Source of the DNA: a virus
Taxonomy: Duplodnaviria > Caudoviricetes
Length of the DNA stretch: 64,000 nucleotides
IMG/VR virus record: IMGVR_UViG_3300049979_000170
Coordinates: 11,027 to 75,026 of that record
Strand: one strand, 5' to 3'
The notes beneath the pieces are model-generated. The model saw nothing but the letters and a program-made list of their open reading frames with translations, made no database searches and was not told where the DNA came from. Position numbers and translations under genes: made by a program. Every line of letters begins with the position of its first letter. The first letter of the stretch is position 1. Shown here piece by piece: positions 19,227 to 63,851 of the stretch.

Positions 19227-20603
19227 TTAGAGCGTTAGGCGCCAATAGCCGGGTGGGTATACCCCCTCGATCGTCTTGACCCAATCCGTGCCGTTCCAGC
19301 GAAGCTGATTACCCGAGTTGGTATTCAGGACGAAGTCGGCGGTCGTTGAACCGTGGACGGGTGAGAACACCACGGTCCAGGCGCCGGACCGATACTCGAT
19401 AATGTCGTTGTGCTTTGCCGTCAGGGCGCCCCAGGCTTGGCTTGGGCCAAGGTCGTGTAGGATGAGATAGCGCTGGCCGTTGACCTGCCCTGGCAGGCCC
19501 TTTCCGGGATAGGTTCGGATCGGATCAATGACGCCGTCAATCGTCCCCTGGGAGTTTGCCGGGAGCGTATCCAGATCGACCTGCCAATGGATGATGTTGG
19601 GATTCGTCGCATCGTACTGAAGCGTCCCGATGATGTCGTGGCTCCAATCATCGATCTGGTCCGGGCTCGTCTTCAGGTGAATCTTTGACAGGCCGGGGCG
19701 TAGCGTCCCATAGAGGTCGATAAGCTTCTTCCACGGGAAGAAATCTCCTCCCACGTCGGTCTCCGCCCCATCGGGTCCGAGAAGGCGAATGAGCCCATCG
19801 TGCACCTCGATCAGGTTGTTGCCCGGCGTGGTGATATGCTGGAACATGAAGGTCTGATCGGTGATCGCGCCATCTTCCTCGCGACCGTCATAGACGTTCG
19901 TGATGATCTGCTCGATGATGCGCTGCTGCATGACCTTCGCGGGCGGCGAGAGCCAGAATGGGAGGCGGAACGTCAGCGTGGTCACGTCGATATCTGAATC
20001 CACGCCCACGGGGATCGAGCGGGACGACCACTGGATGTCGGTGAGTTCCATCATGGTCATGGCGGTCCAGTCCAGAGCGTTGTCTGAGTTCTGAATCTGG
20101 AAGTCCGGGTACACGACCACGAGAATCTGCTCCATGATCTGGTATTTCTGCTGCTGATTCGATGTCCAGATGTCCACGTTGACGGTCATCTCGAACGGGC
20201 GGGGCATCATGCGCTCGACCGTGTAGGAGCGACCTGGGCGGATACCGGCGGCATCCGTGTACTGTCCCGTGGCTTCGTCGAAATCACGCTCCAGTACCTG
20301 TCTGGTGTCCACGTGTCCGGTATGCTGGAGATCACCGCGTCGTCCAGCTAGACCGACATGCGCGATCGTGATCCGAGGGGCCGCCATCGCGGTGTTCTCG
20401 GAGTTGTTCCGAAGGATATGGCCCACGGTGCGATCCTGAATGGCCATCGAGCAGGGGACCACCTTTAGCTGGGGTTCAATCACGATTCCGTTCACGACGC
20501 GGCGACCGGTCATGTACTGGAACCCTGAGAACGCACGCATCATCTGCTGAAGGAATCGCTCCTGCTGATTATCGTACCAATAGTCGAGTTGCTGAAGTGC
20601 CAC
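19227..20603 (-). CDS. gp15: Tail sheath stabilizer/tail completion protein (T4 gp15-like) with a C-terminal extension
   Basis: DYWYDNQQERFLQQMMRAFSG...VPCSMA...PRPFEMTVNVDIWTSNQQQKYQIMEQILVVVYP pattern typical of T4-like gp15; TAAATA at 20631-20636. Confidence 0.65.
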   Translation of the reverse strand: MALQQLDYWYDNQQERFLQQMMRAFSGFQYMTGRRVVNGIVIEPQLKVVPCSMAIQDRTVGHILRNNSENTAMAAPRITIAHVGLAGRRGDLQHTGHVDTRQVLERDFDEATGQYTDAAGIRPGRSYTVERMMPRPFEMTVNVDIWTSNQQQKYQIMEQILVVVYPDFQIQNSDNALDWTAMTMMELTDIQWSSRSIPVGVDSDIDVTTLTFRLPFWLSPPAKVMQQRIIEQIITNVYDGREEDGAITDQTFMFQHITTPGNNLIEVHDGLIRLLGPDGAETDVGGDFFPWKKLIDLYGTLRPGLSKIHLKTSPDQIDDWSHDIIGTLQYDATNPNIIHWQVDLDTLPANSQGTIDGVIDPIRTYPGKGLPGQVNGQRYLILHDLGPSQAWGALTAKHNDIIEYRSGAWTVVFSPVHGSTTADFVLNTNSGNQLRWNGTDWVKTIEGVYPPGYWRLTL

Positions 20604-24070: not shown

Positions 24071-24342
24071 CGGCGATTCCCCTGGATTGGAACACGCACA
24101 AACATCTACTCTGGGGACGTAAGCCAGTCTTTGCGACACCGAATGGCCTGATCGGCGGGGGATGGGAGGTACCACGGTTCATTGAGGAATGGCGCCGGGA
24201 GGCTGGGATCGGGCCGATCGAGTTTCGAATGCGAACCGGTGACTCTGAAGTGATCACGTTCGAGGTGTTTCATCGGAAAGAGGCCGAGGCGGTATTCTGT
24301 TCAGAAAATGATGCATTTATGTTTAAAATGAAATGGCTATGA
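24067..24342 (+). CDS. RW-motif family small protein
   Basis: Ends AVFCSENDAFMFKMKWL. Confidence 0.75.
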   Translation: MTAIPLDWNTHKHLLWGRKPVFATPNGLIGGGWEVPRFIEEWRREAGIGPIEFRMRTGDSEVITFEVFHRKEAEAVFCSENDAFMFKMKWL

Positions 24343-24502
24343 AAGATACTCCTCAGATTTCGGATAACAGCAAGAAGATCGCCAGCCTCATTGTTTTATG
24401 GCTGCTCGTGGCGGGATCGTGGAAGTCGATCGAGGTTATTGCCACTTTGTTCAAGTGGGTATTCCATTAACGAAAAAGGCCGCCCAATGGGCGGCCTTTG
24501 TC

Positions 24503-25066
24503 TTAGGAGAACCAGCCCTTCTTGACTGGTGCGGCGAAGATCAACGGCATCGCTTTAGCAGCGTTCTCCGTGCGCAGGATACGATCGTCGAGACCGTTGT
24601 AGCCTCCGTTGATCCGCTTGGTGATCGAACGAATATCATCCACGTCCGCGTAAGTGGAAAGTTTACGCGAGTTCCAATACTCACAAGCAGTTAGCACTGC
24701 ATACTTGGGATCGCACGCAAGTTCAGGATTTGAAACAAGGTCAACACCGAGTCTGCTACCAAAGACTTTGTAATTTGCCTTGCCGGTTAGCTGAAAAATT
24801 CCGCGACCCTTGTACCGGACTCCATCTCCGGCAGACAGGTTACCGAGGTCTTTACGGCCTTCATAGGCGCGCCCTGAGGCATACTCAGTTAGCGTGGCGA
24901 ATCCATCAGTTTCGTGTGACGCCTGTCCGAGGAAGTGCTTCACACGCAGAGGGGTGTTGATCTCGTACTTCTCCAGAGCGTCGGCCATAAATCCGGCGAG
25001 ACCGTCGATGACCGACTTCTTGCCACGAGGGGCGACCTTTAAAAGAATTTCCGATGTAATGATCAT
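24503..25066 (-). CDS. Glycoside hydrolase family 19 endolysin
   Basis: HFLGQASHETDGF..LTE...YKGRGIFQLTGKANY...ITKRINGGYNGLDDR GH19 motifs; TAAATA at 25092-25097. Confidence 0.88.
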   Translation of the reverse strand: MIITSEILLKVAPRGKKSVIDGLAGFMADALEKYEINTPLRVKHFLGQASHETDGFATLTEYASGRAYEGRKDLGNLSAGDGVRYKGRGIFQLTGKANYKVFGSRLGVDLVSNPELACDPKYAVLTACEYWNSRKLSTYADVDDIRSITKRINGGYNGLDDRILRTENAAKAMPLIFAAPVKKGWFS

Positions 25067-39325: not shown

Positions 39326-39342
39326 GAGATCAAATTCCGAAA

Positions 39343-39369
39343 GAGGGAGGCTTCGGCCTCCCTTTTTTT
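39343..39369 (+). terminator. Rho-independent terminator after the tail sheath gene
   Basis: AGGGAGGC-TTCG-GCCTCCCT followed by a T run. Confidence 0.85.
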
Positions 39370-39595
39370 ATGCCGCCTCGGAAGCTTCTCGCTCGGCCCG
39401 GCGCTTTTCCATGAACGCGGTATCCGCCTTGGCCGCCTGTCGGAAGCACCAGTAGACGAACGGGAGATCGCCCACCTTCTTGTGATAGATGCGGGCGCGC
39501 TTCTCGACACTTGCCTTAACCGAAACCTGAAACATCATCGAGGCGAATTGCAGACTCTCCTCCAGCAGGGAGACGGCCTGCCGGAACTCGAACAC
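39368..39595 (-). CDS. small hypothetical protein (start uncertain)
   Basis: Downstream of the promoter at 39634-39661; the ATG nearest the RBS (39609) is out of frame. Confidence 0.35.
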   Translation of the reverse strand: MFEFRQAVSLLEESLQFASMMFQVSVKASVEKRARIYHKKVGDLPFVYWCFRQAAKADTAFMEKRRAEREASEAA

Positions 39596-39633
39596 GTCTG
39601 GAACGACATGCCGGAATCCCCCTTGATGTCCTC

Positions 39634-39661
39634 AATGTACCTCGAATCGATTATATGTCAA
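39634..39661 (-). promoter_or_regulatory. sigma70-like early promoter TTGACA-N16-TACATT
   Basis: Direct match. Confidence 0.65.
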
Positions 39662-39740
39662 ACGTAGTCCACCCTCTGGCGCTGGGTGTCGATATTCGTT
39701 AGACCAATCTCGCGGGTTTAAGCCGCTCGGAGAAGATAAC

Positions 39741-40034
39741 GTGAAGAATATTGGTAAGTTGGCTATCATTGCCGTGCTCTCGGCTGGGCTCGTTGCCTGC
39801 GGCAGCGGCAACAACATCTCGAACAGCGAGTCGGCAATCGCCAACTCAGGCGGCAAGGACTTTGCCACCAACCTGGGTGGGAAGTTCCTCTCCTGCTCGG
39901 GCGAGGACAGTGACAAGGACGGGTACGTGTCCTGCACGGTGCAGCCCGCCGCGTCGGGCGGTGTGACCCCGCCGCCGATGGAAATCCTCTGCGGCTACAA
40001 GACCGCCGGATGCAAACTCGCCAAGAAAGCGTAA
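39741..40034 (+). CDS. Small lipoprotein
   Basis: Signal peptide MKNIGKLAIIAVLSAGLVA-C lipobox, followed by four further Cys. Confidence 0.75.
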   Translation: MKNIGKLAIIAVLSAGLVACGSGNNISNSESAIANSGGKDFATNLGGKFLSCSGEDSDKDGYVSCTVQPAASGGVTPPPMEILCGYKTAGCKLAKKA

Positions 40035-40373
40035 TTATCGGGGCGGCCTACGGGCCGCCCCGACCCTATGGTCTGCACGCATCAAATGACGACTATGCTT
40101 CATTAATTCCCGAACGATCACGGAGCGACGGTCATTCCTCCGCTCAAGGAAGTCGCACCAGTCCGCAAGCGTACGATTCCTTTTATCGAGGTTGCATGTC
40201 CGACAAACAATCAAGAAGCCCTGACCCGGCATAAAGCTTTTTGGAATGACGTGGTCTCTCGTCGGAAACAGAGGCGTATTCTGCGCTCCCTTGGTCGTTG
40301 GGACACGCATTACCTCTCCACAATATGGACAAGGCCGACCGTGGTGACAAAGAAGGGCAATAGAAAATCGCAT
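40035..40373 (-). CDS. HNH endonuclease
   Basis: CPYCG...TRDHVIPKS...IVCRTCNLDKRN. Confidence 0.8.
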   Translation of the reverse strand: MRFSIALLCHHGRPCPYCGEVMRVPTTKGAQNTPLFPTRDHVIPKSFMPGQGFLIVCRTCNLDKRNRTLADWCDFLERRNDRRSVIVRELMKHSRHLMRADHRVGAARRPPR

Positions 40374-40403
40374 CCTTCCAGTCTATTCATGACACTCTCA
40401 AAG

Positions 40404-41045
40404 TCAACGCTGAATCTGAACTCGGAGGTGGGCGAGCGGCTGAGACGAATTGATAGATTCCGCGCCCAGGCAGACCGTCTGCGGAGCGTTCGGATGGTAC
40501 CGCTGTAGGCGCTGCTGGATCAGAATGCGGTACTCCTGTTTGGTTGCTGCCTGCACTCGAACGCAATTACCAAGAAGGCGCCGATCAAGAACGCAGGACA
40601 CGGTCTCCACCCACAGCGTGTGCGGCTGAGCGGGATTCGACATTCCCCGCTGCTTCACCTCGACCGCCGAGAACTCCGGCTGGTCCATGACGAGGAACAG
40701 CTTCCCCGTGGGAACCTGAAGCTCACTCCCGTTTCCAGAATCTTTTACGAAGATGGTGTCCCCGGTGTACTCATACACCACGCCGGACAGGTCTGGGGTG
40801 AGCCCATCGACAACGTTCGCCGCAACCGCCTCAGATACGGTCGCGGTAACCTTGGCCGAACGTTGCTGCGCGGCAAGGAGCTTCAACGCGCTACGAATCC
40901 ACGGCAGGTACGGGAGGTAGTCGATATCAGAGTCCTCAAGGATTCCAACCTTCTCGCATAGATTGGCCAGGGCAGGCTGACGGCTCGCCTCATAACGGAG
41001 CAAGCTTAGCGGATCACGCCCACGGATGTGTACTGAATCTGTCAT
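40404..41045 (-). CDS. late hypothetical protein
   Basis: TAAATA at 41052-41057 immediately upstream. Confidence 0.6.
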   Translation of the reverse strand: MTDSVHIRGRDPLSLLRYEASRQPALANLCEKVGILEDSDIDYLPYLPWIRSALKLLAAQQRSAKVTATVSEAVAANVVDGLTPDLSGVVYEYTGDTIFVKDSGNGSELQVPTGKLFLVMDQPEFSAVEVKQRGMSNPAQPHTLWVETVSCVLDRRLLGNCVRVQAATKQEYRILIQQRLQRYHPNAPQTVCLGAESINSSQPLAHLRVQIQR

Positions 41046-41067
41046 AAAAACTATTTACAATTGATAT

Positions 41068-41098
41068 AAAAAAAGGCCACCCCAAAGGGGCGGCCCGA
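41068..41098 (-). terminator. Rho-independent terminator
   Basis: GGCCGCCCC-TTT-GGGGTGGCC followed by a T run on the minus strand. Confidence 0.75.
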
Positions 41099-41132
41099 GT
41101 CTTTGGGAGAAGAAGTCCGATGAAGATCGGAT
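41068..41132 (-). ncRNA. Candidate ~65-nt small RNA
   Basis: TTGACA (41161-41166) with a weak -10 element, hairpin TCCGAT/ATCGGA, pyrimidine tract CTTCTTCTCCC, then a terminator; no ORF. Confidence 0.4.
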
Positions 41133-41188
41133 GACGACGTGTACGAAGAACCCCAGAGGGTGTCAACCTGAAAATGGTTTAACGAATC

Positions 41189-41392
41189 TTAGATCGGGCG
41201 AATCACAATAAGAAATCCCTGCGCATCGATCAGCAGGGTATCGCCTCGCATCACGGTGATTTTCTTGTCACCCTCTTGAATCAGAAGGCGAAAATCATCA
41301 GGCACAAAATTGGGGTTTTTCTTGACCAGCCACTGCGGCCAACGTTTAGGATTTCCGCTTCCTTCCCAAATATAACTATTACTATCAGGCAT
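41189..41392 (-). CDS. small hypothetical protein
   Basis: ORF track; beta-rich sequence. Confidence 0.5.
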   Translation of the reverse strand: MPDSNSYIWEGSGNPKRWPQWLVKKNPNFVPDDFRLLIQEGDKKITVMRGDTLLIDAQGFLIVIRPI

Positions 41393-41693
41393 AAAATATC
41401 CAACTATCTAAATGGTGGTTCGTGAAGTTGATCGGAATTCAAGATCAAGCAAGGGATACCATCCCTCACAGGGTAGGCTCCCCTCCGCGAACCGTCCTAC
41501 TAAATCACACGCGCGTGTTAGTTCACGCTCTCTTATTCGTCTCCCATGCCAATGGGCGTATACTTTTTCGCGCTTGGCAAAGCGCACCCTAATCACCACG
41601 AATAAGCTTATAGGTTCAGGACACTGAAGCCCCTGGTGAGCCGGACATCTCCGACCTGTTCAACATAATTGGGTGATTCAGCTAGCGCAATAT

Positions 41694-41936
41694 TTAAAAC
41701 CAAGCTACTTTAAAGAATAACGCATCATCTGCATCACCGAAGTGCACTTTGGCGTCGATCGAGGAAAGGTGAACGCGATATTTGGGAATCCACTTATGTT
41801 CCTGAATCACCTCTAGCCGGGGAACGTAGGTGAGGTTGCTGGCAATCCAAGCCGCGACATCCTCCCGGAACACCCATTCATCATCGAACAACCTTGCGAG
41901 CGCGGGTGTAATATCAAGTGTAGTGGGTTCATTCAT
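41694..41936 (-). CDS. RW-motif family small protein, late expressed
   Basis: Ends VHFGDADDALFFKVAWF; TAAATA at 41942-41947. Confidence 0.7.
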   Translation of the reverse strand: MNEPTTLDITPALARLFDDEWVFREDVAAWIASNLTYVPRLEVIQEHKWIPKYRVHLSSIDAKVHFGDADDALFFKVAWF

Positions 41937-42041
41937 AAACGTATTTAGTCGATCAAATAATCCTTTAGCTTCAAAGTAAACACAGCACTTATTGCAATCG
42001 AATAAATACTTCGTAGCTCATTATACGGAGTATTTTTAAAT

Positions 42042-55615: not shown

Positions 55616-56260
55616 TTACTCTTCGTCGCCGAGGAGGGCGCCGACCACCTTGAACGCCTCGGCCACGTCGTCGGTGTCCAGCTTGGGCTTCACCGCGAGG
55701 GTGCCGACGATCGGAAGCAGGTCACGGGCCTTCTCGGCAGGGAGCGTGAAGAGAACGTCGAGGGCGTCGTCGGCGGCAACGGTCTTCGACACGCCCTCTT
55801 GGAACATGATGAAGTCCTCGGGGATGCCCTTGATCCCCTTGAGCTTCTTCTCGACCAGGGCGAGGAGGTCACCGTTGTCCTTGTACTCGGGATTGATCAC
55901 GTAGGTCTCGATCGTGGAGACGACCGTCTTGGTGCCGATCCCGGCCTCGGCGTAGAGCTTCTGCTCGTCCTCGGAGAGGGCCGACGCGGAAGAGCGGATG
56001 CGAAGCTCGCAGGAGGCGGAGGCACCCTCATCGGTGCCACGGAAGTTCTCGGGGCGCTTCTTGATCGCGCAGCCGGTGGTCACGAACTCGACGGCCATGG
56101 CGGACTTCACGTCGCTCTCGACGGTGGCCTTGAGAGCGGCCAGGGACTTCATCACCGCGTCGATCGAGGCCAGGGTGGCGAGACCGTCGATGGCGACCTG
56201 AGCCTTGGTGTCCTTCTTGGGGGCCTTCGGAGCGGCGATCTTCTTGGCGGTGCTGAACAT
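55616..56260 (-). CDS. Highly expressed early protein (unknown function)
   Basis: Own promoter, RBS and terminator; extreme C/G3 codon bias; Lys/Ala-rich N-terminus. Confidence 0.75.
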   Translation of the reverse strand: MFSTAKKIAAPKAPKKDTKAQVAIDGLATLASIDAVMKSLAALKATVESDVKSAMAVEFVTTGCAIKKRPENFRGTDEGASASCELRIRSSASALSEDEQKLYAEAGIGTKTVVSTIETYVINPEYKDNGDLLALVEKKLKGIKGIPEDFIMFQEGVSKTVAADDALDVLFTLPAEKARDLLPIVGTLAVKPKLDTDDVAEAFKVVGALLGDEE

Positions 56261-56288
56261 TTGGTGTCTCCCGTTCGCTGATGTCCCT

Positions 56289-56316
56289 AATGTACGCTAT
56301 TTCGTGAGTATGTCAA
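56289..56316 (-). promoter_or_regulatory. sigma70-like early promoter TTGACA-N16-TACATT
   Basis: Direct match. Confidence 0.7.
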
Positions 56317-56351
56317 ATGGGTTTCCGCCCATGTATGCGGGATGGTTAATT

Positions 56352-56639
56352 ATGGACCCACCAATTTTTCCCAGGTACGGTCGAGGCATGCCTGCGATCT
56401 CTCATGTCACATATGAAAAACTGCCAGACAATCTTCATCACGTGAGGATCGGGCCGATTGACTGGACAACCGTCAAACAGCTATTGGCCGGTCACAACGA
56501 GTGGATTCACGACGACAAGAGTTCGACCGAGGGGTCGTACACGATCATCCAGTCGTCCAATTACGACGGCGTCCGGTATCTGAACTACTACTTCTCGGAT
56601 CAGGTCACGGCGTTCAATTTCAAGATCAGATGGGGATGA
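56352..56639 (+). CDS. RW-motif family small protein
   Basis: Ends YYFSDQVTAFNFKIRWG. Confidence 0.7.
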   Translation: MDPPIFPRYGRGMPAISHVTYEKLPDNLHHVRIGPIDWTTVKQLLAGHNEWIHDDKSSTEGSYTIIQSSNYDGVRYLNYYFSDQVTAFNFKIRWG

Positions 56640-56642
56640 GAG

Positions 56643-57482
56643 ATGCGACCGGACGTATCATGGGTCGTCGATACGCTACTGACCGATCGGAATCGTGGTA
56701 ACACGGGATTTCCCACCATGGCGGAGGCGGCGGCGAATCTCGGCTATCCCGTGTACCAGACCGTGTACGAGCCGGGATCGAAGGCGCCTGACCCAAACAT
56801 CCCGTTCGGCCCCGGCTGCGTCATGACGTACGGGACCCATCAGTTTGTCCGGCAGGCCAGCATGGCGAATGCCGGGAAGTGGTCTCCTGGGGCGTTCTCG
56901 CGGATCGAGCGGCTATCCTACTCCGCCTATGCCCCGTACATCGGCGACATCCTGCTGAACGACGATTTCATTCTCCTTCCCTACGGGGAGGTGCTTCGTC
57001 GTGGCTTCGACGCGTTCGGGGACGCCTACTTCCTGAAGCCCGACGCGGTGACCAAGGCGTTCACCGGATTTGTGATGACGCGGGACAAGTATCAGACCGA
57101 GGTGGAGACGCTGAAGAAGTCCGTCTACCCGGAGATGATCTGCGTGGTTGCCAAGCCCCGCTCGATCGAGGCTGAGTTCCGATTCGTCATTGCCGATCGG
57201 CAAGTCGTGGCGGGATCGCAGTACCGCTGGGAAGATCGCCTGGACGTTCGCCTGGACGTTCTACCGATCTGCCGTGAACTGGCCCAGGAGGTCGCCCAGA
57301 GGGAATGGCAGGCCGATCGCTGCTACACCTGCGATGTTGCGCTGCTGGACGGGCGCAGTAAGGCACGGATCGTCGAACTCAACACGTTCTCGTCGTCCGG
57401 GCTGTACGCGTGCGACACCGAGGCGGTGGTCGATGCGGTCAGCCGCGCGGCATGGCGCGAGTACCTGGGCGAGGACGACTAG
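56643..57482 (+). CDS. ATP-grasp domain protein (DUF4343/R2K-like)
   Basis: FLKPD..K.FTG...E.RFVIAD..VVAGSQY...DVAL...IVELNTFSSSGLY.CD ATP-grasp motifs. Confidence 0.7.
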   Translation: MRPDVSWVVDTLLTDRNRGNTGFPTMAEAAANLGYPVYQTVYEPGSKAPDPNIPFGPGCVMTYGTHQFVRQASMANAGKWSPGAFSRIERLSYSAYAPYIGDILLNDDFILLPYGEVLRRGFDAFGDAYFLKPDAVTKAFTGFVMTRDKYQTEVETLKKSVYPEMICVVAKPRSIEAEFRFVIADRQVVAGSQYRWEDRLDVRLDVLPICRELAQEVAQREWQADRCYTCDVALLDGRSKARIVELNTFSSSGLYACDTEAVVDAVSRAAWREYLGEDD

Positions 57483-57955
57483 AACGGCTTGTTGAATCGC
57501 GCCTTGAGAACCTTCCGGGCCAGACTCCCGGAAGGCATCTCGAACATCGCCCACCACATGAGGCGCTTGAATCCGATGCGCCGGTCTGCCGCCCGAAGGA
57601 TATCGCACAGGTCGTGGTCATCGTCTCGGATCGGCTCGAACAGTTCGGCCACCGGGGTATTGATATAGCGCTCGACTACCTCGATAGGGGGCGGATAGTA
57701 CCAAGAGCCGTAATTCTTTTGAATCGTCGTGCCGCGCGGCGATGGGTTGAGCCCACTGCCGAAAAAGTCCGAGGGGAAGTCCCAGAACGAGACCCCATCG
57801 ATCCGCAGGATCATGCGAGACCCACCGACGCCTTCGCTCGGATGCATCATCGTTTCGCAAGTCATGCGGGACCGCAAAGATGGTGCCCAAAGGTCCTCCA
57901 TCCGCGTCTGCACGCCTTTCCAACGAACCGCAGGTCTGTTTCGCATTATCCCCAC
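57479..57955 (-). CDS. hypothetical protein
   Basis: ORF downstream of the ClpP-like gene. Confidence 0.6.
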   Translation of the reverse strand: MGIMRNRPAVRWKGVQTRMEDLWAPSLRSRMTCETMMHPSEGVGGSRMILRIDGVSFWDFPSDFFGSGLNPSPRGTTIQKNYGSWYYPPPIEVVERYINTPVAELFEPIRDDDHDLCDILRAADRRIGFKRLMWWAMFEMPSGSLARKVLKARFNKPF

Positions 57956-57961
57956 ACTGGC

Positions 57962-58513
57962 TTAGTAAGTCGTCACAACGTGATCTGCAACCCCGAGATC
58001 AACAGCTTCCTTCGTGGTCAACCAAACGTCCTCCGGGGGGAGTAGGAATTCCTTGATCTTCTTCTCAGATAGACCAGTGCACTTCTTGTAGTGGTTGAGG
58101 ATGCGCTCCTGCGTCAGGGTGAATTCCTTCACCGTGGCGAACAGTTCGTGCTCCTTGCCGAAGCTACCCCAGGAAAACTGGTGCGAGAGGATCGCGGTGT
58201 TCGGGGTGATGAAGCGCCGACCCTTCGAACCGGCCAGGAACAGCATGAGCCCGCATGAGGCGATCTGGCCAAGGCCGATCGTCCGGACGGGAATCTTCGA
58301 ACCCTTGATCGTATCGACAAGGCCGAACATCGCACCCACGTCGCCACCCGGCGAGTTGATCACAAAGGTAAGCTCATCGGGGCGGTCAGCCTTTGGCAGC
58401 AGATTCTTCTCAAGGACGAAGCGAATCGCCTTTGCGCACGAGTTCAGCGAGAACCCTTCCATGAAAAGATACGTCCCGGTCTCTTCGAGAGTCGGGGTTG
58501 ATTTGTCAGCCAT
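57962..58513 (-). CDS. clpP: ClpP-like serine protease (Clp protease proteolytic subunit)
   Basis: FVINSPGGDV, GQIASCG (catalytic Ser), ILSHQ (His), DVWLTTKEAVDLGVAD. Confidence 0.85.
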   Translation of the reverse strand: MADKSTPTLEETGTYLFMEGFSLNSCAKAIRFVLEKNLLPKADRPDELTFVINSPGGDVGAMFGLVDTIKGSKIPVRTIGLGQIASCGLMLFLAGSKGRRFITPNTAILSHQFSWGSFGKEHELFATVKEFTLTQERILNHYKKCTGLSEKKIKEFLLPPEDVWLTTKEAVDLGVADHVVTTY

Positions 58514-58620
58514 AAAATACCCTCGTGAAATGAAGAAATTAACCAATGGGAACACTTCACCACGTTGGGGTACCTGAAGTCGATATTTCGTTTGACCAAA
58601 CCGTTAGAATCTCGTACCAA

Positions 58621-58711
58621 CCCTTACCTCCGTAGGCGAAGGTCGTGGGGTTCGAGTCCCTGCCGGACGTAGTCCGAAGCTGAAGGGCGAAGCAGCGTCG
58701 AAGGTGGGAGG
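58621..58711 (+). ncRNA. YrlA/Y-RNA-like tRNA-mimic ncRNA candidate
   Basis: 5' CCCTTACCT pairs with 3' AGGTGGG(A)GG. Inside are a variable-loop-like AGGTC, a T-arm GGGG-TTCGAGT-CCCT, an acceptor-like hairpin CGGAC-GTA-GTCCG and a D-like arm GCT-GAAGGGCGA-AGC, in the permuted T-AS-D order. TTGACC lies upstream at 58592. Confidence 0.6.
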
Positions 58712-58825
58712 GGGGAGATGGTACGGCGGGGCCTCGCCGGAAGCTCCTCCCGCCGGTATAGGGTTAAACATGATCGAGATTCTGAGAAAGCTCTGGAATC
58801 GATTCTGGATACGGCGGCATCGCTG

Positions 58826-59074
58826 ATGTTCGGCCCGTACGTCTACCATTATTTTGAGCGTAGCTCTCACGGGTTTCCCTTCGTGTTTACGGTCCGGAAG
58901 CCCAATGGGTCTCGCTCGTTTGAGGACCGTATGGCGTTGGTCCGTGAATGCCGAGAATACGCTGAGGCACAATTCGGCATAGACCCGAAACGGTGGACCT
59001 ACGACGGTGCCACCGATATGATCCGATTCAGCCGCCAGCAGGATGCATTTCTATTTCGGATGCGTTGGGCATGA
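58826..59074 (+). CDS. RW-motif family small protein
   Basis: YAEAQFG; ends IRFSRQQDAFLFRMRWA; alternative start at 58718. Confidence 0.7.
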   Translation: MFGPYVYHYFERSSHGFPFVFTVRKPNGSRSFEDRMALVRECREYAEAQFGIDPKRWTYDGATDMIRFSRQQDAFLFRMRWA

Positions 59075-59379
59075 CATTTCGCTTCAAACAGTTCCACGTT
59101 CCACCAACGTGGCCCTCACACTGGCCGTACCGGTTCGACATGTTCTGGGATGGTGATTTTGGCGATCACACGCGGGTCCTGCGCCAGTCCATGCAGACGC
59201 TTTATGAGCGCCTGTCACTGCTGGATGAGGTCGATTCGTGGTGTCTGCGCGAGATCGGAAAGGGCGGACCGGAATCACAGAGATGGAACCGACTGAAGGG
59301 TCAGGATCATACGCCCGGTCAGATGGTTTTTATCCACGACGCGGACCATGCCGTAGCGTTCAAGCTCAGATTTTGCTGA
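59071..59379 (+). CDS. RW-motif family protein
   Basis: WCLREIG; ends VFIHDADHAVAFKLRFC. Confidence 0.75.
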   Translation: MTFRFKQFHVPPTWPSHWPYRFDMFWDGDFGDHTRVLRQSMQTLYERLSLLDEVDSWCLREIGKGGPESQRWNRLKGQDHTPGQMVFIHDADHAVAFKLRFC

Positions 59380-59648
59380 TGCGATTCCGCTTCACCCACA
59401 CGTATCGCCCACACAGCCAATGGGCGCATCGTTTCGATCTCTATGAGATGGGACCGCGAGGCTGCTCGATGGAATGGCGCCGCCTACGCAACACCTTGAT
59501 TCATGACGCGCGGGTCTGGTGCGGAGTGAATCTCGGCCATGCCGGACCGAAGGGGTCCGACGCGCACTGGTACTATTCTATCTCCGGAGAAGTCCTCTGG
59601 ATTCGAACGGACGCCGATGCGTTCGCGTTCAAGCTGATGTTCGGCTAA
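59379..59648 (+). CDS. RW-motif family small protein
   Basis: WCGVNLG; ends LWIRTDADAFAFKLMFG. Confidence 0.75.
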   Translation: MRFRFTHTYRPHSQWAHRFDLYEMGPRGCSMEWRRLRNTLIHDARVWCGVNLGHAGPKGSDAHWYYSISGEVLWIRTDADAFAFKLMFG

Positions 59649-59863
59649 AACCAGCGCATCTTGAACGCAAAGGCGTGCTCGGGCTTCTCGAAGAATATGA
59701 CCGGCCCCATCCCGCTCGAATTCGCCCGGAGCGCATAGATGATATCGTTCTCCATAAGCCAGACACGCGCCTCCCAGCGCAGATCACAATAGCCTGCGGG
59801 GCCTCGGGCGCTGGTGGAGACGACCAGTTTTTGAGGCAGTATCAGTGGGGGCGTCAGAACCAT
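59645..59863 (-). CDS. RW-motif family small protein
   Basis: Ends IFFEKPEHAFAFKMRWF; start ATG within the upstream RW codons. Confidence 0.75.
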   Translation of the reverse strand: MVLTPPLILPQKLVVSTSARGPAGYCDLRWEARVWLMENDIIYALRANSSGMGPVIFFEKPEHAFAFKMRWF

Positions 59864-60078
59864 CGCATCTTGAACGCGAATGCGTCCTCCGGGTTGGTGA
59901 AGAAGAGCTTGAACCCCTCGTACTTAGTAGCTCTCACTTCTGACTTGATTTCGTTTTGTTTCAGCCATTCCGAGATATCTCTCCTCATAATATATTTGGT
60001 AACAGACCAATTGATAACATGATCGTTATCGATCATTGAATACGGAATCTTCAATTCGACGTTGTAGATGAATCTCAT
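59854..60078 (-). CDS. RW-motif family small protein
   Basis: Ends LFFTNPEDAFAFKMRWF. Confidence 0.75.
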   Translation of the reverse strand: MRFIYNVELKIPYSMIDNDHVINWSVTKYIMRRDISEWLKQNEIKSEVRATKYEGFKLFFTNPEDAFAFKMRWF

Positions 60079-60305
60079 AGCCATCTCATCTTAAACGCGA
60101 AGGCGTCATCCGTGCTCCGGAATTTTACCACGATATACTGGTCGTATTCACAGACATGAGCCATAAAAGGCTCGGAAGTCTGTTCGTTCAGCCAGCGAAG
60201 TGTTTCCACCCACACCTCTTCGCTGGCCTGTCGTTTACGAAGGACGAACTTCGTCCAGGCGGGGCCGACCCAATGCTTGTGGGCAACCCAATCAACCTTG
60301 GGCAT
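60075..60305 (-). CDS. RW-motif family small protein
   Basis: Ends VKFRSTDDAFAFKMRWL. Confidence 0.75.
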   Translation of the reverse strand: MPKVDWVAHKHWVGPAWTKFVLRKRQASEEVWVETLRWLNEQTSEPFMAHVCEYDQYIVVKFRSTDDAFAFKMRWL

Positions 60306-60513
60306 CGCGATCCTGCTGGCGTTCCTTCCAGAGAATCGCCGGGTCGAGACGTGACGGCAGCGCCACCAACCCGGTACAGACCAGCCACCCCGAGGCGCCC
60401 CAGAAATCGCCCTCGTACACGCACCACCCGACGATCCCCAGCATGGCCAGGATGATCACACCGAACACCACGAGCATCGCCCGCATGAACGGTTGGTCGA
60501 TCGGTCGAGACAT
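60292..60513 (-). CDS. small two-TM membrane protein
   Basis: AMLVVFGVIILAMLGIVGWCVY...FWGASGWLVCTGLVAL. Confidence 0.65.
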   Translation of the reverse strand: MSRPIDQPFMRAMLVVFGVIILAMLGIVGWCVYEGDFWGASGWLVCTGLVALPSRLDPAILWKERQQDRDAQG

Positions 60514-60779
60514 CAGCACCACCTCAGACGGAAAGCCGTGGCATCCGTCGCGTTTCGGAACGTGTACTCACCCAGACCCAGATAGACCCAGCGGCCTTGG
60601 TCGTCCGAACGGAAACGATCGGCTTGTTCACCAAATTGATCCGCGCACCATTCGAGGACCGACTTGTTTTGCTGCGACGCCACACCATCGACGAAGCTCA
60701 CGTCGGGCAGGCCAAACATGTGGAGCCAGTCATGGTTAAGACTGTCACCCTCATAGTGAACAAATTTCAGCGCAATCAT
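60513..60779 (-). CDS. RW-motif family small protein
   Basis: WCADQFG; ends YTFRNATDATAFRLRWC. Confidence 0.75.
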   Translation of the reverse strand: MIALKFVHYEGDSLNHDWLHMFGLPDVSFVDGVASQQNKSVLEWCADQFGEQADRFRSDDQGRWVYLGLGEYTFRNATDATAFRLRWC

Positions 60780-60991
60780 GCCCACCTCATCTTGAACTCC
60801 AACGCCACGTTGGGGTCCTTGAACGCAAATTCGGCCGTATACAGTTCTGTAGTGGGACAGTAGCAGTAATCGTTTCGGTCGATCCGCTCCTTGATCCAGG
60901 CGACTGCCTCCTGTCGGAGAAGGCTCATGACCACACCGTGTTGGCGAAGGATCGTAACACGGTGTGGGAATCGAAGTGATACGTTGTCCAC
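60776..60991 (-). CDS. RW-motif family small protein
   Basis: Ends FAFKDPNVALEFKMRWA. Confidence 0.75.
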   Translation of the reverse strand: MDNVSLRFPHRVTILRQHGVVMSLLRQEAVAWIKERIDRNDYCYCPTTELYTAEFAFKDPNVALEFKMRWA

Positions 60992-62124
60992 TACACCCAC
61001 CTCATCTTGAATTCCATTCCCTGATCCATCAGCAGGGTGCCGGTGAGAATGGCATCTCCGCTGCCGCTGACGTTTTCCACCGCGATCTTGCGTACGGCAA
61101 GCCAGTCGGTGAATTCCGTCATAGAAGCCTTCTGGCTCTCCCCGGCGGGGAAGATTGCCTCGAAGCTCTCCGTCGCCGTAGGCGGCTCGTATCGGACCGA
61201 GAAATGATCGTTCCAGCCGTCGAGGTGCGTGATACCGAACTGGCGGGGGGCTTCGCCCGGCTCCGGCTCGATCGGGTAGAGGTTCATCACCGGCTTGGTC
61301 AGTTTCAGCGAAGCCGCGACACCCGATTGCATGCCCTTACCGACCGAACCGATCGCGCTCGGCGCCCAGCCGTCCTCGATCATCGCCATCCACGAGGCGA
61401 ACGACGCGGTCGAGTCGCCGAACGAGGATGCCCGGTTCCGAACGAGCCACGCGGCAAGCTTCGTCGGCGTGTCGAACACCGGGGACATCGGCGAACCCTC
61501 GGAGGTGTTCTCCCACATCTGGTATCCCGGACCCTCGGGGACCGGCGTCTCCTCCCACCCGTCATAGGCGGCGCGGTGTGCCTCGTCCCGGTAGATGAAG
61601 CCCTCGCCTCCGCAGCACTGGCATTCTCCCCAGATACCGAGGCGCTTGGCCCGAAATTCTACCATGAGGTAGCGATTGATCCCGTCGTGGCCTAAGCCGT
61701 ACTGCATCTGACGGTTTACCTGCGCGGCGGTCGGCCAGGGCTTGGCCGGATCGCGCTTCCATTCGCGTGCCACCGAGTCCCACGAGTTAACCAGATCGTT
61801 TAGGCGACCCTCCGAGATGAGGTGATCGACCTCCTCCTGGGTCAGGTCATGCGCCCACGAGCGGGAGTTCCCGAACACCTTCCAGGGCGGACGCTCGGCG
61901 GGCTCCCCGTCGATGCCGGTCTTGTAGTCGTACCGCCACCGCGTCTGGAACCCCGCGTGGTCGTACCAGTCATCGGCGAGTTGCTTCGTCTCGGGGTTCT
62001 GCCCGGTGCCATCGCAGGAAACGCACTTGACCGGCTCGTCTGATTCCGGCCGGATGAACCCGCCCCAGACCTTATGCATCGGCCAGTTAAAATCGAGCGG
62101 CACACGTCTGACTTCGCGACCCAT
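60991..62124 (-). CDS. 377-aa fusion: CxxC-containing phage hypothetical domain plus a C-terminal RW module
   Basis: MGREVRRVPLDFNWP...CVSCDGTG...CQCCGGEG...YQMWENTSEGSPMSPVF; ends LLMDQGMEFKMRWV. Confidence 0.75.
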   Translation of the reverse strand: MGREVRRVPLDFNWPMHKVWGGFIRPESDEPVKCVSCDGTGQNPETKQLADDWYDHAGFQTRWRYDYKTGIDGEPAERPPWKVFGNSRSWAHDLTQEEVDHLISEGRLNDLVNSWDSVAREWKRDPAKPWPTAAQVNRQMQYGLGHDGINRYLMVEFRAKRLGIWGECQCCGGEGFIYRDEAHRAAYDGWEETPVPEGPGYQMWENTSEGSPMSPVFDTPTKLAAWLVRNRASSFGDSTASFASWMAMIEDGWAPSAIGSVGKGMQSGVAASLKLTKPVMNLYPIEPEPGEAPRQFGITHLDGWNDHFSVRYEPPTATESFEAIFPAGESQKASMTEFTDWLAVRKIAVENVSGSGDAILTGTLLMDQGMEFKMRWV

Positions 62125-62381
62125 CACAACCCCCCAAAGCGCATCTTGAAAGCGAAAGCGGCGTTCTTGTTCTCAAGCGCAACCGTCATATATTCGTCCC
62201 ATTTCGGAAGAAATCCGAAGATGTAGTAGCCGTCGAAGTCGGCTTCCTTGAGCCAATCTAGGATTTCGAAGCGATCCAGATCGTAGCGGCCCGTACGCAT
62301 CTTCACGCATGGCCAGGATTCCGACTCCGTGTAGAGATCAGACCACGACCGTCCGGGAGATAAATCGTTAAGGTTCTTCAT
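62124..62381 (-). CDS. RW-motif family small protein
   Basis: Ends VALENKNAAFAFKMRFGGL. Confidence 0.75.
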   Translation of the reverse strand: MKNLNDLSPGRSWSDLYTESESWPCVKMRTGRYDLDRFEILDWLKEADFDGYYIFGFLPKWDEYMTVALENKNAAFAFKMRFGGL

Positions 62382-62635
62382 CCCCATCGCATCTTGAACT
62401 CCAGAGCGATGGTCGCCCTCTGGATACCCACGCCAATATGAGGAACAGATTGGTCCTCGTGTTTGTACATGTCGTGGAACGTCCGGTACAGACCCTTACG
62501 GGTCGGACTTTCGAGCCAGTCGATGATCTCGACGATATTGATCTTGTACTTGTGCCAAGACATCTTGATGATCGTATATCTCGGCGTGCCAAGGCGCGAA
62601 ATCTTGTGGGCGCTCAGCATATCGAAATTCCGCAT
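62378..62635 (-). CDS. RW-motif family small protein
   Basis: Ends VGIQRATIALEFKMRWG. Confidence 0.75.
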   Translation of the reverse strand: MRNFDMLSAHKISRLGTPRYTIIKMSWHKYKINIVEIIDWLESPTRKGLYRTFHDMYKHEDQSVPHIGVGIQRATIALEFKMRWG

Positions 62636-62862
62636 CAGCCCCACCTCATCTTGAATGCGAAAGCATCGCTGTCATATTTGATCCTGATCTTCGGCGTTAG
62701 ATCAGCATCGATCAAGTAGCCATAGCGATGATTCTTGTATACGTTTCCCCACTCGGCCTCGCACCACCTGAGAATTTCAATGCGGGTCTCACGGGTATTG
62801 CGTCGTTCGAATTGAACGATCCACCATATCCCACACTTCGTGAGGGTGAATTCCCGTTTCAC
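62635..62862 (-). CDS. RW-motif family small protein
   Basis: GTG start (GTGA overlap); WCEAEWG; ends IRIKYDSDAFAFKMRWG. Confidence 0.75.
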   Translation of the reverse strand: MKREFTLTKCGIWWIVQFERRNTRETRIEILRWCEAEWGNVYKNHRYGYLIDADLTPKIRIKYDSDAFAFKMRWG

Positions 62863-63224: not shown

Positions 63225-63851
63225 ATGCGTTACGATAGCTTCGAGTACCTTTGGCCCCCGCGTCCGGAGAAGCCAATCCCGCGCAACTTCTTCGGCTTTT
63301 ATGTGAAGAAGGGCTGGTTCGCTCAAGCCAAGAAGAACGGCACCTGCAACGTTATCGCGGTGTCGCCGGACAAGAAGCTCACCTGCATGAACCGCCATAA
63401 CGAGCCGCACAAACTGTGGGAGCCCACCAGGGCATCGTCGGCAGCATTCCAAAGCCTTCCCGGCACCGGATGGAACGTGATCGTCGCCGAACTTCTGCAC
63501 TCCAAAGTGACCGGCGGCGTACGGGACACCAATTTCATCAACGACATCCTCGTTCAGGACGGGCACTATCTAGTCGGCGAGACCTACGCGCAGCGACAAA
63601 TTCGTCTGCGCAGGCTTTTCCCGGACATCCAGGGGGAGACCGCGTCCCACTACATCATCAACGAGAACACGTGGCTGGCCAAAAACGTCCAGCAGGGCTT
63701 TGCCGCGTTCTTCGACAGCCTCGACAAGCCCGAGGACGAGGGGATCGTCCTGAAGGACCCTGGTTCGGTCCTGGCGATCTGTTCGCGAGAAAAGGCAAAC
63801 GTCACATGGTCGGTGAAGAGCCGCCGCCAGCACAAGAATTTTGGATTCTGA
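63225..63851 (+). CDS. ATP-dependent ligase-like nucleotidyltransferase (adenylation domain only)
   Basis: Motif I AKKNGT, AELL, DIL, EGIVLK (motif IV), VKSR (motif V); no OB domain. Confidence 0.7.
   Translation: MRYDSFEYLWPPRPEKPIPRNFFGFYVKKGWFAQAKKNGTCNVIAVSPDKKLTCMNRHNEPHKLWEPTRASSAAFQSLPGTGWNVIVAELLHSKVTGGVRDTNFINDILVQDGHYLVGETYAQRQIRLRRLFPDIQGETASHYIINENTWLAKNVQQGFAAFFDSLDKPEDEGIVLKDPGSVLAICSREKANVTWSVKSRRQHKNFGF

What the first reader, a model, noticed from the sequence alone, without database searches (positions are those of the whole stretch)
58592..58720. YrlA/Y-RNA-like tRNA mimic upstream of an RW operon
Seen in sequence: an intergenic ~90-nt element with terminal pairing (CCCTTACCT / AGGTGGG-A-GG) enclosing a tRNA variable-loop-like AGGTC, a canonical T-loop TTCGAGT, a closed acceptor-like hairpin (CGGAC-GTA-GTCCG), two linker nucleotides, a GG-containing D-like loop, and a CGTC/GGCG helix. 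Established knowledge: bacterial and phage YrlA RNAs have this permuted T-AS-D tRNA mimicry and partner with Ro60 (Rsr). No Ro60/TROVE gene is seen in this window. Inference: a phage decoy for tRNA-targeting defence nucleases or for the host Ro/PNPase. Alternatively it is a leader, since its 5' CCTCC-like strand can sequester the G-rich RBS of the ATG at 58718.
Basis: partly seen in the sequence, partly recalled or inferred. Interest (0 to 1): 0.72.

Follow-up and report, generated by a model that had tools for sequence, protein, structure and literature searches.

The report
Phage sealed tRNA-mimic small RNA
A giant phage of root-associated bacteria carries a gene for a ~135-base RNA that imitates the upper half of a tRNA but can be neither charged nor decoded; it is built like the bacterial YrlA "Y RNAs", yet it has its own scaffold and no Ro60 partner gene in the DNA available.

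Summary

It is real and under selection. Related phage contigs carry the same design at the same place, upstream of clpP on the opposite strand, with different helix sequences: 12 of 22 pairs show changes on both sides. A model built without the window still finds it (25.7 bits). In a near-identical phage, every substitution inside the RNA keeps the fold, while both flanks diverge.

Rfam YrlA hits stay below threshold (17.9 bits here, 30-36 in relatives). No TROVE or DUF2828 gene lies in the 75-kb record. The slot where the two cultured relatives (Phosso, Atu_ph07) keep their Ro60 gene holds other genes here.

The leader/RBS alternative fails, because ATG 58718 is not conserved.

Verdict: a stand-alone YrlA-class tRNA mimic on a new scaffold, partner unknown. 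This scan has already found other tRNA-mimic RNA families, with different handles, on other DNA.

The parts
58554..58596 (.). Conserved divergent-promoter block shared with clpP (ACTTCACCACG ... TTTCGTTTGAC). It includes the inverted repeat GTCGAT(58579-58584)/TTTGAC(58591-58596), which reads GTCAAA-N7-TTTGAC in relatives.
   Evidence: Invariant columns in alignments A1 and A5. The pattern occurs once in the window and 0 times in 100 shuffles.
58592..58620 (+). Predicted promoter of the RNA: -35 TTGACC 58592-58597, 17-nt spacer, -10 TACCAA 58615-58620.
   Evidence: TTGAC(C/G)-N17-TAnnnn lies at the same place in seven loci. In four of them the conserved 5' AUGCG/AUACGC begins 7 nt after the -10. 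The simple sigma-70 scan does not call it, because it lacks T at position 6. This is a prediction only.
58625..58760 (+). Whole predicted small RNA, about 135 nt. Ends are inferred from where conservation starts and stops.
   Evidence: Near-identical to L204 from 58625 to 58757, with five fold-neutral substitution events, while both flanks diverge. Family members were found with models R1 and R2.
58626..58629 (+). Basal stem, 5' strand ACCU, pairing with AGGU 58702-58705.
   Evidence: The basal helix has changes on both sides in all 4 modelled pairs across the family. A58702G in L204 turns U-A into U.G.
58635..58641 (+). GGCGAAG. GGCG pairs with CGUC 58696-58699 (an anticodon-stem-like helix). 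The 7-mer also matches the YrlA motif GNCGAAN0-1G.
   Evidence: Sequence. Motif definition from PMC4201824. L019 has UGCGAAG at the same position, but the motif is not conserved in the other members.
58640..58644 (+). Variable-loop-like AGGUC.
   Evidence: aligned with the variable region of YrlA and of tRNAs.
58645..58663 (+). T-arm: 6-bp stem GUGGGG/CCCUGC, loop UUCGAGU.
   Evidence: Three of five T-stem pairs show changes on both sides across the family.
58664..58676 (+). Sealed acceptor-like hairpin CGGAC-GUA-GUCCG.
   Evidence: A different sequence at the same position in every member; 5 of 7 pairs changed on both sides; 94.7% of cells paired.
58677..58693 (+). Linker AA (relatives have UA or UG) and D-arm GCU(G)-AAGGGCG-(A)AGC, with GGG at 58685-58687.
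   Evidence: D-stem 95.7% paired. The window copy departs from relatives at the equivalents of tRNA positions 8 and 15.
58696..58705 (+). 3' strands of the GGCG/CGUC helix (58696-58699) and of the basal stem (58702-58705).
58710..58751 (+). 3' hairpin domain: outer stem 58710-58717 with 58744-58751, internal loops 58718-58723 and 58740-58743, inner hairpin 58724-58729 with 58734-58739.
   Evidence: RNAalifold on 8 homologous units: 10 of 12 pairs kept through changes on both sides. L204 carries G58713U together with U58748A (compensatory) and C58746U (G-C becomes G.U).
58752..58760 (+). Conserved tail GCCGGUA. Relatives L204, L016 and L027 units B and C follow it with a U-run, so it is probably the 3' end or a terminator.
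58826..59074 (+). First downstream gene (RW-family protein, 82 aa). This is the likely true start. It is a neighbour, not part of the RNA.
   Evidence: Orthologues in L019 and L021 begin at the equivalent residues. ATG 58718 is not conserved.

Best explanation
This is a stand-alone small-RNA gene of the YrlA class, a Y-RNA-like sealed tRNA mimic, in an Atu_ph07/Phosso-like jumbo phage of Rhizobiales. It is transcribed from a conserved promoter that sits back to back with the clpP promoter. The RNA of about 135 nt folds into a short basal stem carrying a circularly permuted tRNA 'top half': variable loop, T-arm, an acceptor stem closed by a loop, and a D-arm. A separate GC-rich 3' hairpin follows and probably ends and stabilises the transcript. 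The mimic keeps the T-loop and the D-loop GG, so it should form a tRNA elbow. It has no anticodon arm and no free CCA end, so it can be neither decoded nor aminoacylated. I infer that it acts in trans by occupying or tethering a protein that recognises the tRNA elbow or the acceptor-T helix. The partner is unresolved. My odds are about 30% for a Ro60-type ring protein (the host's Rsr, or a phage copy outside this fragment) and about 45% for another tRNA-binding factor, such as a tRNA-directed defence or processing enzyme or the neighbouring RNA-repair-type enzymes. Shown here: the structure, its conservation, its boundaries, and that it stands alone. Inferred: transcription, action in trans, and the partner.
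For: Structure and covariation: six members, 88.5% of cells paired against 41-54% when the partner columns are slid, 12 of 22 pairs changed on both sides, 0 of 500 shuffles as high. Leave-one-out detection at 25.7 bits. Untrained members L020 (45.9 bits) and L027 unit A (about 30 bits) are found. Rfam YrlA hits at the syntenic site in L019 (36.1 bits, full length), L020 (33.4) and L027 unit C (29.7), with no tRNA called there by ARAGORN. Near-identical phage L204: all five substitution events inside the RNA keep the fold, including one compensatory pair, while the flanks diverge. Stand-alone status: in L016/L017 the unit is followed by a U-run and a convergent gene; L027 carries three tandem units; downstream genes differ between loci. 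A conserved promoter is present. Precedent: YrlA RNAs are handled by tRNA-recognising enzymes and bind Rsr (PMC4201824).
Against: There is no expression data. The predicted -10 box is weak by E. coli rules. Every Rfam YrlA score is far below the gathering score, and the same model scores 23-26 bits on junctions of adjacent tRNA genes. No candidate partner gene is linked to the RNA. The window copy has non-canonical bases at the equivalents of tRNA positions 8 and 15, so it may be a weakened member. In the window the 3' hairpin has no U-run, so read-through into the downstream genes is possible. The covariation count was made on an alignment fitted to the model.
Confidence: 0.62

Rival explanations
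1. It is a true Y RNA in the strict sense: it binds a Ro60/Rsr ring (the host's, or a phage copy encoded outside this 17%-complete fragment) and tethers it to an RNA-decay or RNA-repair enzyme, as YrlA does.
For: The tRNA-like module has the YrlA layout. GGCGAAG at 58635-58641 matches the proposed Rsr-contact motif GNCGAAN0-1G, and L019 has UGCGAAG at the same place. The two closest cultured phages, Phosso and Atu_ph07, both encode a TROVE protein (115-116 bits) plus dispersed Y-like RNAs far from that gene, so distance from Ro60 is no obstacle in this lineage. A Rhizobium species is reported to have Rsr and YrlA. A ligase-like gene lies 4.5 kb downstream, and in L022 an end-healing kinase also follows the RNA, which recalls the rsr-yrlBA-rtcBA operon.
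Against: There is no TROVE or DUF2828 gene in the 75-kb record, and no Pfam hit to them in the five largest ORFs of the 4.5 kb beyond it. In Phosso and Atu_ph07 the Ro gene sits between the tail sheath and tail tube genes; that slot in the window (39326-42041) holds an HNH-like gene and unknown genes instead. The Y-like RNAs of those Ro-encoding phages share a handle (CCGAU-N5-9-GGUUAUC ... CACUUGC) that is absent from the window and from this family. The GNCGAA motif is not conserved across the family and lies next to the variable loop rather than in a terminal stem.
Confidence: 0.28
2. It is a cis-acting 5' leader of the downstream RW-gene operon. Its C-rich 5' strand masks a G-rich ribosome-binding site, or the fold serves as an mRNA stabiliser or processing signal.
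For: GGGAGG lies 6 nt upstream of ATG 58718 and can pair with CCUCC 58627-58631. In the window the 3' hairpin has no U-run, so transcription may continue into the genes from 58826. In most loci, genes on the same strand follow the RNA.
Against: ATG 58718 reads CAA in L204. Orthologous RW genes start at the equivalent of 58826. The first downstream gene differs between loci: an RW gene, a non-RW gene, or a membrane-like gene. In L016/L017 the next gene is convergent. Tandem triplication in L027 is not how a leader behaves.
Confidence: 0.07
3. It is a decaying remnant of phage tRNA genes, for example a collapsed pair of adjacent tRNAs, with no present function.
For: Parts resemble the 3' halves of phage tRNAs (83-93% over 27-42 nt). 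Models of this kind also hit junctions of adjacent tRNA genes. The window copy has degenerate bases at the equivalents of positions 8 and 15. The element is absent or replaced in close relatives (L021, L016/L017).
Against: A junction between two tRNA genes has no reason to form a closed acceptor hairpin, yet all six members have one, with compensatory changes. Between the window and L204 the RNA is far more conserved than its flanks. It has its own conserved promoter and 3' hairpin.
Confidence: 0.05

Closest known systems
YrlA (Y RNA-like A; Rfam RF02553; Chen et al. 2014, PMC4201824; structure preprint 10.1101/312249)
   Same: The module order is the same on one strand: variable region, T-arm with a canonical T-loop, acceptor-like stem closed by a loop, two linker bases, D-arm with GG. 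The module sits on a stem through what would be the anticodon stem. YrlA also occurs in large tRNA-rich phages and as tandem copies (YrlA/YrlB).
   Different: Scores are 17.9-36 bits against a gathering score of 69. YrlA's three stacked basal stems with the conserved GNCGAAUGC region are replaced by a short stem with a 5' AUGCG, an AGYAG linker, and a separate 3' hairpin ending in GCCGGU. No Ro60 gene lies within 4 kb, which was the criterion used to define YrlA sets, or anywhere in the 75 kb available.
Y-like RNAs of the cultured relatives Sinorhizobium phage Phosso and Agrobacterium phage Atu_ph07 (unannotated; found here)
   Same: The phage lineage is the same (TerL 55-58% identical). They are stand-alone units with promoter and terminator, carry sealed T / acceptor / D modules, and are dispersed in the genome.
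   Different: Their closing handle (6-bp stem, CCGAU-N5-9-GGUUAUC ... CACUUGC) resembles, from my memory of human Y1 RNA, the classical Ro-binding stem. Those phages encode Ro60. The window's family lacks that handle, and the window lacks the Ro gene at the syntenic slot.
Handle-tagged tRNA-mimic RNAs beside DUF2828 (Ro60-like) genes, noted by earlier agents of this scan on other phages (unpublished AI notes)
   Same: The idea is the same: one conserved scaffold carrying interchangeable tRNA-like cargo, often in arrays, in large phages.
   Different: Their handle (stem plus ACAGCAA) is not enriched in the window: 4 matches against 4.5 expected, none near the element. No DUF2828 gene is present.
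tRNA genes and tmRNA
   Same: T-arm, D-arm and a predicted elbow.
   Different: There is no anticodon arm, no free acceptor end and no CCA. ARAGORN and the Rfam tRNA model do not call it.

Membership tests
YrlA (RF02553 / Chen et al. 2014) | Permuted tRNA-like domain: T-arm, closed acceptor-like stem-loop, two linker bases, D-arm | tested here: met
   Full-length alignment to the model. The same layout holds in six family members with covariation.
YrlA (RF02553 / Chen et al. 2014) | Score at or above Rfam's gathering threshold (69 bits) | tested here: not met
   17.9 bits for the window; 36.1, 33.4 and 29.7 bits for relatives. The model also gives 23-26 bits on junctions of adjacent tRNA genes.
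YrlA (RF02553 / Chen et al. 2014) | GNCGAAN0-1G motif near the 5' end (proposed Rsr contact) | tested here: inconclusive
   There is an exact GGCGAAG at 58635-58641 and a near match in L019. The motif is not conserved in L022, L027 unit A or L020, and it lies next to the variable loop, not in a terminal stem. A six-specified-base motif like this is expected by chance in roughly 5% of 100-nt stretches (my own estimate).
YrlA (RF02553 / Chen et al. 2014) | Encoded within about 4 kb of a Ro60/TROVE gene | tested here: not met
   No PF05731 match in the whole 75-kb record. No hit in the five largest ORFs of the 4.5 kb beyond the window end in L204. None in five further relatives.
YrlA (RF02553 / Chen et al. 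2014) | Binds Rsr; carries tRNA-type modifications | not testable with these tools
   Needs pull-down or gel-shift assays and modification mapping.
Classical Y RNA handle as in Phosso/Atu_ph07 Y-like RNAs | Closing stem followed by CCGAU-N5-9-GGUUAUC, with CACUUGC on the 3' strand | tested here: not met
   0 matches in the window. 4 in Phosso and 1 in Atu_ph07, with 0 in the reversed-pattern control.
ACAGCAA-handle RNAs with DUF2828 partner (earlier notes of this scan) | Closing stem plus ACAGCAA; DUF2828 gene nearby | tested here: not met
   ACAGCAA occurs at chance level and not near the element. No PF11443 match in the record.
tRNA (RF00005) | Cloverleaf with anticodon arm and an open acceptor stem | tested here: not met
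   No ARAGORN or Rfam tRNA call at 58600-58770. The acceptor stem is closed by a 3-nt loop.
Translational leader (RBS sequestration) | Conserved start codon and RBS inside the structure | tested here: not met
   ATG 58718 reads CAA in L204. No equivalent start exists in other members.
Intrinsic terminator (3' hairpin 58710-58751) | GC-rich stem directly followed by a U-run | tested here: inconclusive
   The scan does not call it in the window. U-runs follow GCCGG in L204, L016 and L027 units B and C, but not in the window, L019, L020 or L022.

The most novel reading that the evidence does not exclude
This is a Ro60-independent 'display scaffold' RNA family of Rhizobiales jumbo phages. A fixed frame (promoter, 5' AUGCG, basal stem, AGYAG linker, 3' hairpin with GCCGGU) carries swappable cargo: a sealed permuted tRNA top half, a normal-topology tRNA-like body, a double body, or a plain hairpin. 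The unit is gained, lost and multiplied between phages whose ClpP is 77-99% identical. That turnover suggests an arms-race element that decoys tRNA-directed host defences or steers the adjacent end-healing and sealing enzymes.
Probability: 0.3. Interest if true: 0.75.

Novelty: new variant of a known kind. Interest (0 to 1): 0.55.

Why it matters
YrlA-type RNAs were defined by lying next to Ro60, and what their tRNA-like half does is still unknown. Here the same sealed tRNA mimic sits on a different scaffold, with no Ro60 gene in the DNA available and the ancestral Ro60 slot holding other genes. The cargo changes, multiplies and disappears among very close relatives. If the RNA works without Ro60, the tRNA-mimic module has a function of its own, such as acting as a decoy or a platform for tRNA-binding proteins. 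That function could be tested in culturable relatives of Agrobacterium and Sinorhizobium phages. If it binds host Rsr, it would be a phage RNA that takes over a host RNA-quality-control particle. Either way it adds an unannotated RNA gene family to jumbo-phage genomes.

Tried and rejected
1. Exact and degenerate DNA patterns for the element and its promoter found nothing in viral contigs or metagenome contigs.
2. Viral-contig relatives found through ClpP (27-61% identical) have no member. The one YrlA hit among them (25.6 bits) was the junction of tRNA-Arg and tRNA-Met.
3. Eighty metagenome loci with ClpP 54-67% identical gave no hit with model R1, so the family is confined to the close clade, at least at this locus.
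4. A 3'-hairpin pattern gave 91 viral hits. All were chance matches with no tRNA-like module. A co-occurring 'handle' match in some of them lies inside coding sequence.
5. The MFE fold and z-score of the region are uninformative (z = +2.0). The MFE misses the T-arm, as often happens with tRNA-like RNAs.
6. The Rfam outer stem GUACCA/UGGUAC (58614-58619 with 58720-58725) is rejected. It overlaps the -10 box, and its changes in L204 are only half compensated.
7. No RtcB, RNA_ligase (PF09414) or convincing AAA_33 gene is in the record.
8. The large unknown ORFs in the window are structural proteins (tail tube, virion protein, sheath, gp15, terminase), not Ro-like.
9. RW proteins have no Pfam or PHROG family and are not consistently the first gene downstream, so I did not pursue them as partners.
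10. Whole-contig searches of the Logan and JGI relatives were not possible.
11. Paper searches found no description of a Ro-less phage YrlA-like RNA.

Full report
**What the window is.** The window is 64 kb of a 75-kb IMG/VR virus record that CheckV rates 17% complete. It carries T4-type structural genes: tail sheath, gp15, tail tube and large terminase. It also carries five tRNA genes. The closest cultured phages by terminase are Sinorhizobium phage Phosso (469 kb, 57.5% identity) and Agrobacterium phage Atu_ph07 (490 kb, 54.8%). This is therefore a fragment of a jumbo phage of Rhizobiales.

**The observation.**
- a GGCG/CGUC helix (58635-58638 with 58696-58699);
- the variable-loop-like AGGUC (58640-58644);
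- a T-arm with a 6-bp stem and loop UUCGAGU (58645-58663);
- a sealed hairpin CGGAC-GUA-GUCCG (58664-58676);
- linker AA, then a D-arm with GGG (58679-58693).

ARAGORN and Rfam's tRNA model call no tRNA there. Rfam's YrlA model aligns over its full length, but at only 17.9 bits against a gathering score of 69.

**Why the YrlA score alone proves nothing.** The YrlA model also scores 23 bits on the junction of the adjacent tRNA-Ile and tRNA-Val genes at window 327-443, and 25.6 bits on a tRNA-Arg/tRNA-Met junction in a relative. Chen et al. warned of this artefact. I therefore looked for homologues.

**Homologues.** Close ClpP homologues (77-99% identical) were traced to their contigs. In all of them the region upstream of clpP starts with a conserved block containing TTGAC(C/G)-N17-TAnnnn and an inverted repeat GTCAAA-N7-TTTGAC. 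Downstream of that promoter, on the strand opposite clpP, the contigs differ:
- L019 and L022 each carry one unit of the same design as the window.
- L020 carries a double tRNA-like array.
- L027/L028 carry three tandem units within a 628-nt gap. Unit A has a ~40-nt insertion in the D-arm. Unit B is a normal-topology cloverleaf-like body with a tetraloop in place of the anticodon loop. Unit C is a clean permuted unit with a 7-bp sealed acceptor.
- L016/L017 keep the frame, but a plain hairpin replaces the tRNA-like part.
- L021 has lost the body, so GAUGCG is joined almost directly to CGCCGGUA.

ARAGORN finds no tRNA in any of these loci. Rfam YrlA hits L019 at 36.1 bits over the full length, L020 at 33.4 bits and L027 unit C at 29.7 bits. 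Unit B hits the tRNA model at 26.5 bits, just under that model's threshold.

**Covariation.**
- A covariance model built from four members (R1) found the untrained L020 (45.9 bits) and L027 unit A (about 30 bits).
- On the six-member alignment, 88.5% of cells are paired, against 41-54% when the 3' partners are slid by 1-3 columns.
- Twelve of 22 pairs show changes on both sides, and no shuffle out of 500 reached the observed values.
- The sealed acceptor hairpin has a different sequence in every member (5 of 7 pairs changed on both sides). T-stem position 51:63 appears as G-C, C-G, U-A and A-U.
- One caveat: this alignment was fitted to the model.
- As an independent test, a model built without the window (R2) finds the window element at 25.7 bits, E about 8e-6. 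Only the tRNA junction artefact scores higher in the window.

**A second domain and the boundaries.** After the tRNA-like domain, every unit has a GC-rich hairpin with an internal loop and an inner stem-loop, followed by GCCGGU. Ten of its 12 pairs are kept through changes on both sides. In the window the outer stem is 58710-58717 with 58744-58751, and the inner stem is 58724-58729 with 58734-58739.

L204, a contig from another sample whose ClpP is 99% identical, fixes the boundaries. The two sequences are near-identical from 58625 to 58757. The eleven bases just upstream and the sequence after GCCGGUA differ heavily. Inside the RNA there are only five changes, and all are neutral for the fold:
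- A58702G turns U-A into U.G in the basal stem.
- G58713U together with U58748A turns G.U into U-A, a compensatory change.
- C58746U turns G-C into G.U.
- AUG becomes CAA in an internal loop.

Three conclusions follow:
- The RNA is under purifying selection.
- ATG 58718 is not conserved.

**Stand-alone gene or leader?**
- In four loci the conserved 5' AUGCG/AUACGC begins 7 nt after the -10 hexamer, which is where transcription would be expected to start.
- In L016/L017 the unit ends in a U-run and meets a convergent RW-family gene.
- L027 has three units in tandem.
- The first downstream gene differs from locus to locus.
- Orthologous RW genes start at the equivalent of ATG 58826, not 58718.

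These points favour a trans-acting small RNA and refute the RBS-sequestration idea. In the window, read-through into the downstream genes remains possible, because no U-run follows the hairpin.

**Is it a Y RNA with a Ro60 partner?**

Evidence for:
- The module layout is that of YrlA.
- GGCGAAG (58635-58641) matches the proposed Rsr-contact motif GNCGAAN0-1G.
- Phosso and Atu_ph07 both encode a TROVE protein at 115-116 bits. Phosso's is annotated 'Ro-like RNA binding protein'; Atu_ph07's is annotated 'Clp protease-like protein'.
- Phosso also has unannotated stand-alone RNAs with sealed T / acceptor / D modules, far from its Ro gene.

Evidence against:
- The 75-kb record has no TROVE or DUF2828 gene.
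- The five largest ORFs in the 4.5 kb beyond the window in L204 have no such hit.
- In both cultured relatives the Ro gene sits between the tail sheath and tail tube genes. In the window that slot (39326-42041) holds an HNH-like gene, unknown genes and an RW-like gene instead.
- The Y-like RNAs of those phages share a handle (CCGAU-N5-9-GGUUAUC ... CACUUGC) that is absent from the window and from this family.
- The GNCGAA motif is not conserved across the family.

I put a Ro60-type partner at roughly 30%.

**Other context.** A 208-aa minimal ATP-dependent ligase-like gene lies 4.5 kb downstream on the same strand (63225-63851). Its orthologue in L022 (64% identical to the L204 copy) sits 1.7 kb downstream of the RNA, next to a protein with an HD(IG) domain and a kinase domain that resembles bacterial Pnkp and tRNA kinases. 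This looks like an RNA end-healing and sealing set. It recalls the link between YrlA and RtcB in Salmonella, but it rests on few loci and is only a lead.

**Comparison and novelty.**
- The element works like YrlA, as a sealed permuted tRNA mimic on a stem.
- It fails three membership tests: the gathering score, adjacency to Ro60, and the conserved basal region. It also has a frame of its own.
- Earlier agents of this scan described other scaffold-plus-cargo tRNA-mimic RNAs in phages, with an ACAGCAA handle and a DUF2828 partner. I tested for both here, and neither applies.
- I found no paper describing a Ro-less phage YrlA-like RNA.
- I file it as a new variant of a known kind.
- The window copy is a somewhat divergent member: it has A where relatives have U at the equivalent of tRNA position 8, and A where they have G at position 15.

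**From memory, not tested.** The Caulobacter-type sigma-70 consensus (TTGACGS ... GCTANAWC) would fit the weak -10 boxes. The Phosso handle resembles the human Y1 RNA stem.

Noticed in passing
L027:151-650 (minus strand), the same in L028: Three tandem units of the family lie in one 628-nt gap upstream of clpP. Unit A has a ~40-nt hairpin inserted in its D-arm. Unit B is a normal-topology tRNA-like body (Rfam tRNA 26.5 bits, not called by ARAGORN) whose anticodon arm is a 4-bp tetraloop hairpin. Unit C is a permuted unit with a 7-bp sealed acceptor, the length that allowed RNase P cleavage of M. smegmatis YrlA.
   Followed up: partly
L020:2657-2879 (minus strand): A double tRNA-like array lies inside one frame: D-arm, short stem-loop, T-arm, sealed acceptor, D-arm, short stem, second T-arm. 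It is enclosed by a 7-bp outer stem ACGUGAG/CUCACGU.
   Followed up: partly
L016:2751-2889 and L017 (minus strand); L021:1185-1206: Promoter, 5' end and 3' hairpin are the same, but a long plain hairpin replaces the tRNA-like part (L016/L017), or the whole body is deleted (L021). The cargo turns over between phages whose ClpP is 83-87% identical to the window's.
   Followed up: partly
window 58554-58596: An invariant block lies between clpP and the RNA gene. It contains the inverted repeat GTCAAA-N7-TTTGAC (GTCGAT in the window). This could be two back-to-back -35 boxes or an operator for a dimeric regulator. On the clpP strand a conserved TGGTGAAGT follows 17-18 nt after TTGACA.
   Followed up: partly
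window 63225-63851 (+); L022:459-1097 and L022:1314-2405 (minus strand): A minimal 208-aa ATP-dependent ligase-like protein (KxNG motif, weak DNA_ligase_A_M hit, no solved relative by sequence). In L022 it sits beside an HD(IG) plus Pnkp/PSTK-like kinase protein. This may be an RNA end-healing and sealing pair downstream of the tRNA mimic.
   Followed up: partly
L219 (Phosso PV764938.1) 19150-19340, 24180-24400, 24420-24620; also 420671; Atu_ph07 MF403008.1 10964: Unannotated stand-alone RNA genes with promoter and terminator. They carry sealed T / acceptor / D modules on a shared handle (covarying 6-bp stem, CCGAU-N5-9-GGUUAUC, 3' CACUUGC) that looks like the classical Y RNA stem. Both phages encode Ro60, but 80-270 kb away from these RNAs.
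   Followed up: partly
L226 (Atu_ph07 MF403008.1) 93591-95246: The gene annotated 'Clp protease-like protein' matches the TROVE (Ro60) family at 116 bits. It sits between the tail sheath and tail tube genes, as does Phosso's 'Ro-like RNA binding protein'. A 650-nt unannotated gap follows it.
   Followed up: partly
window 39326-42041: This is the slot between the tail sheath and tail tube genes that holds Ro60 in Phosso and Atu_ph07. Here it holds an HNH-like endonuclease (40035-40373, minus strand), a 213-aa unknown protein, small ORFs and an RW-like gene (41694-41936). First-stage notes also flag structured non-coding stretches at 41068-41166 and 41414-41664. I did not examine them beyond finding no hit with my models.
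   Followed up: no
window 56205-62644, both strands: At least a dozen paralogous small 'RW' genes end in (A/E)FKMRW(x), some fused to longer N-terminal parts. They have no Pfam or PHROG family. The same family flanks the RNA locus in the relatives.
   Followed up: partly
window 327-443 (minus strand): The Rfam YrlA model and my own models score 23-37 bits on the junction of tRNA-Ile and tRNA-Val, which lie 6 nt apart. This is a concrete example of the tandem-tRNA false positive for permuted tRNA-mimic models.
   Followed up: yes
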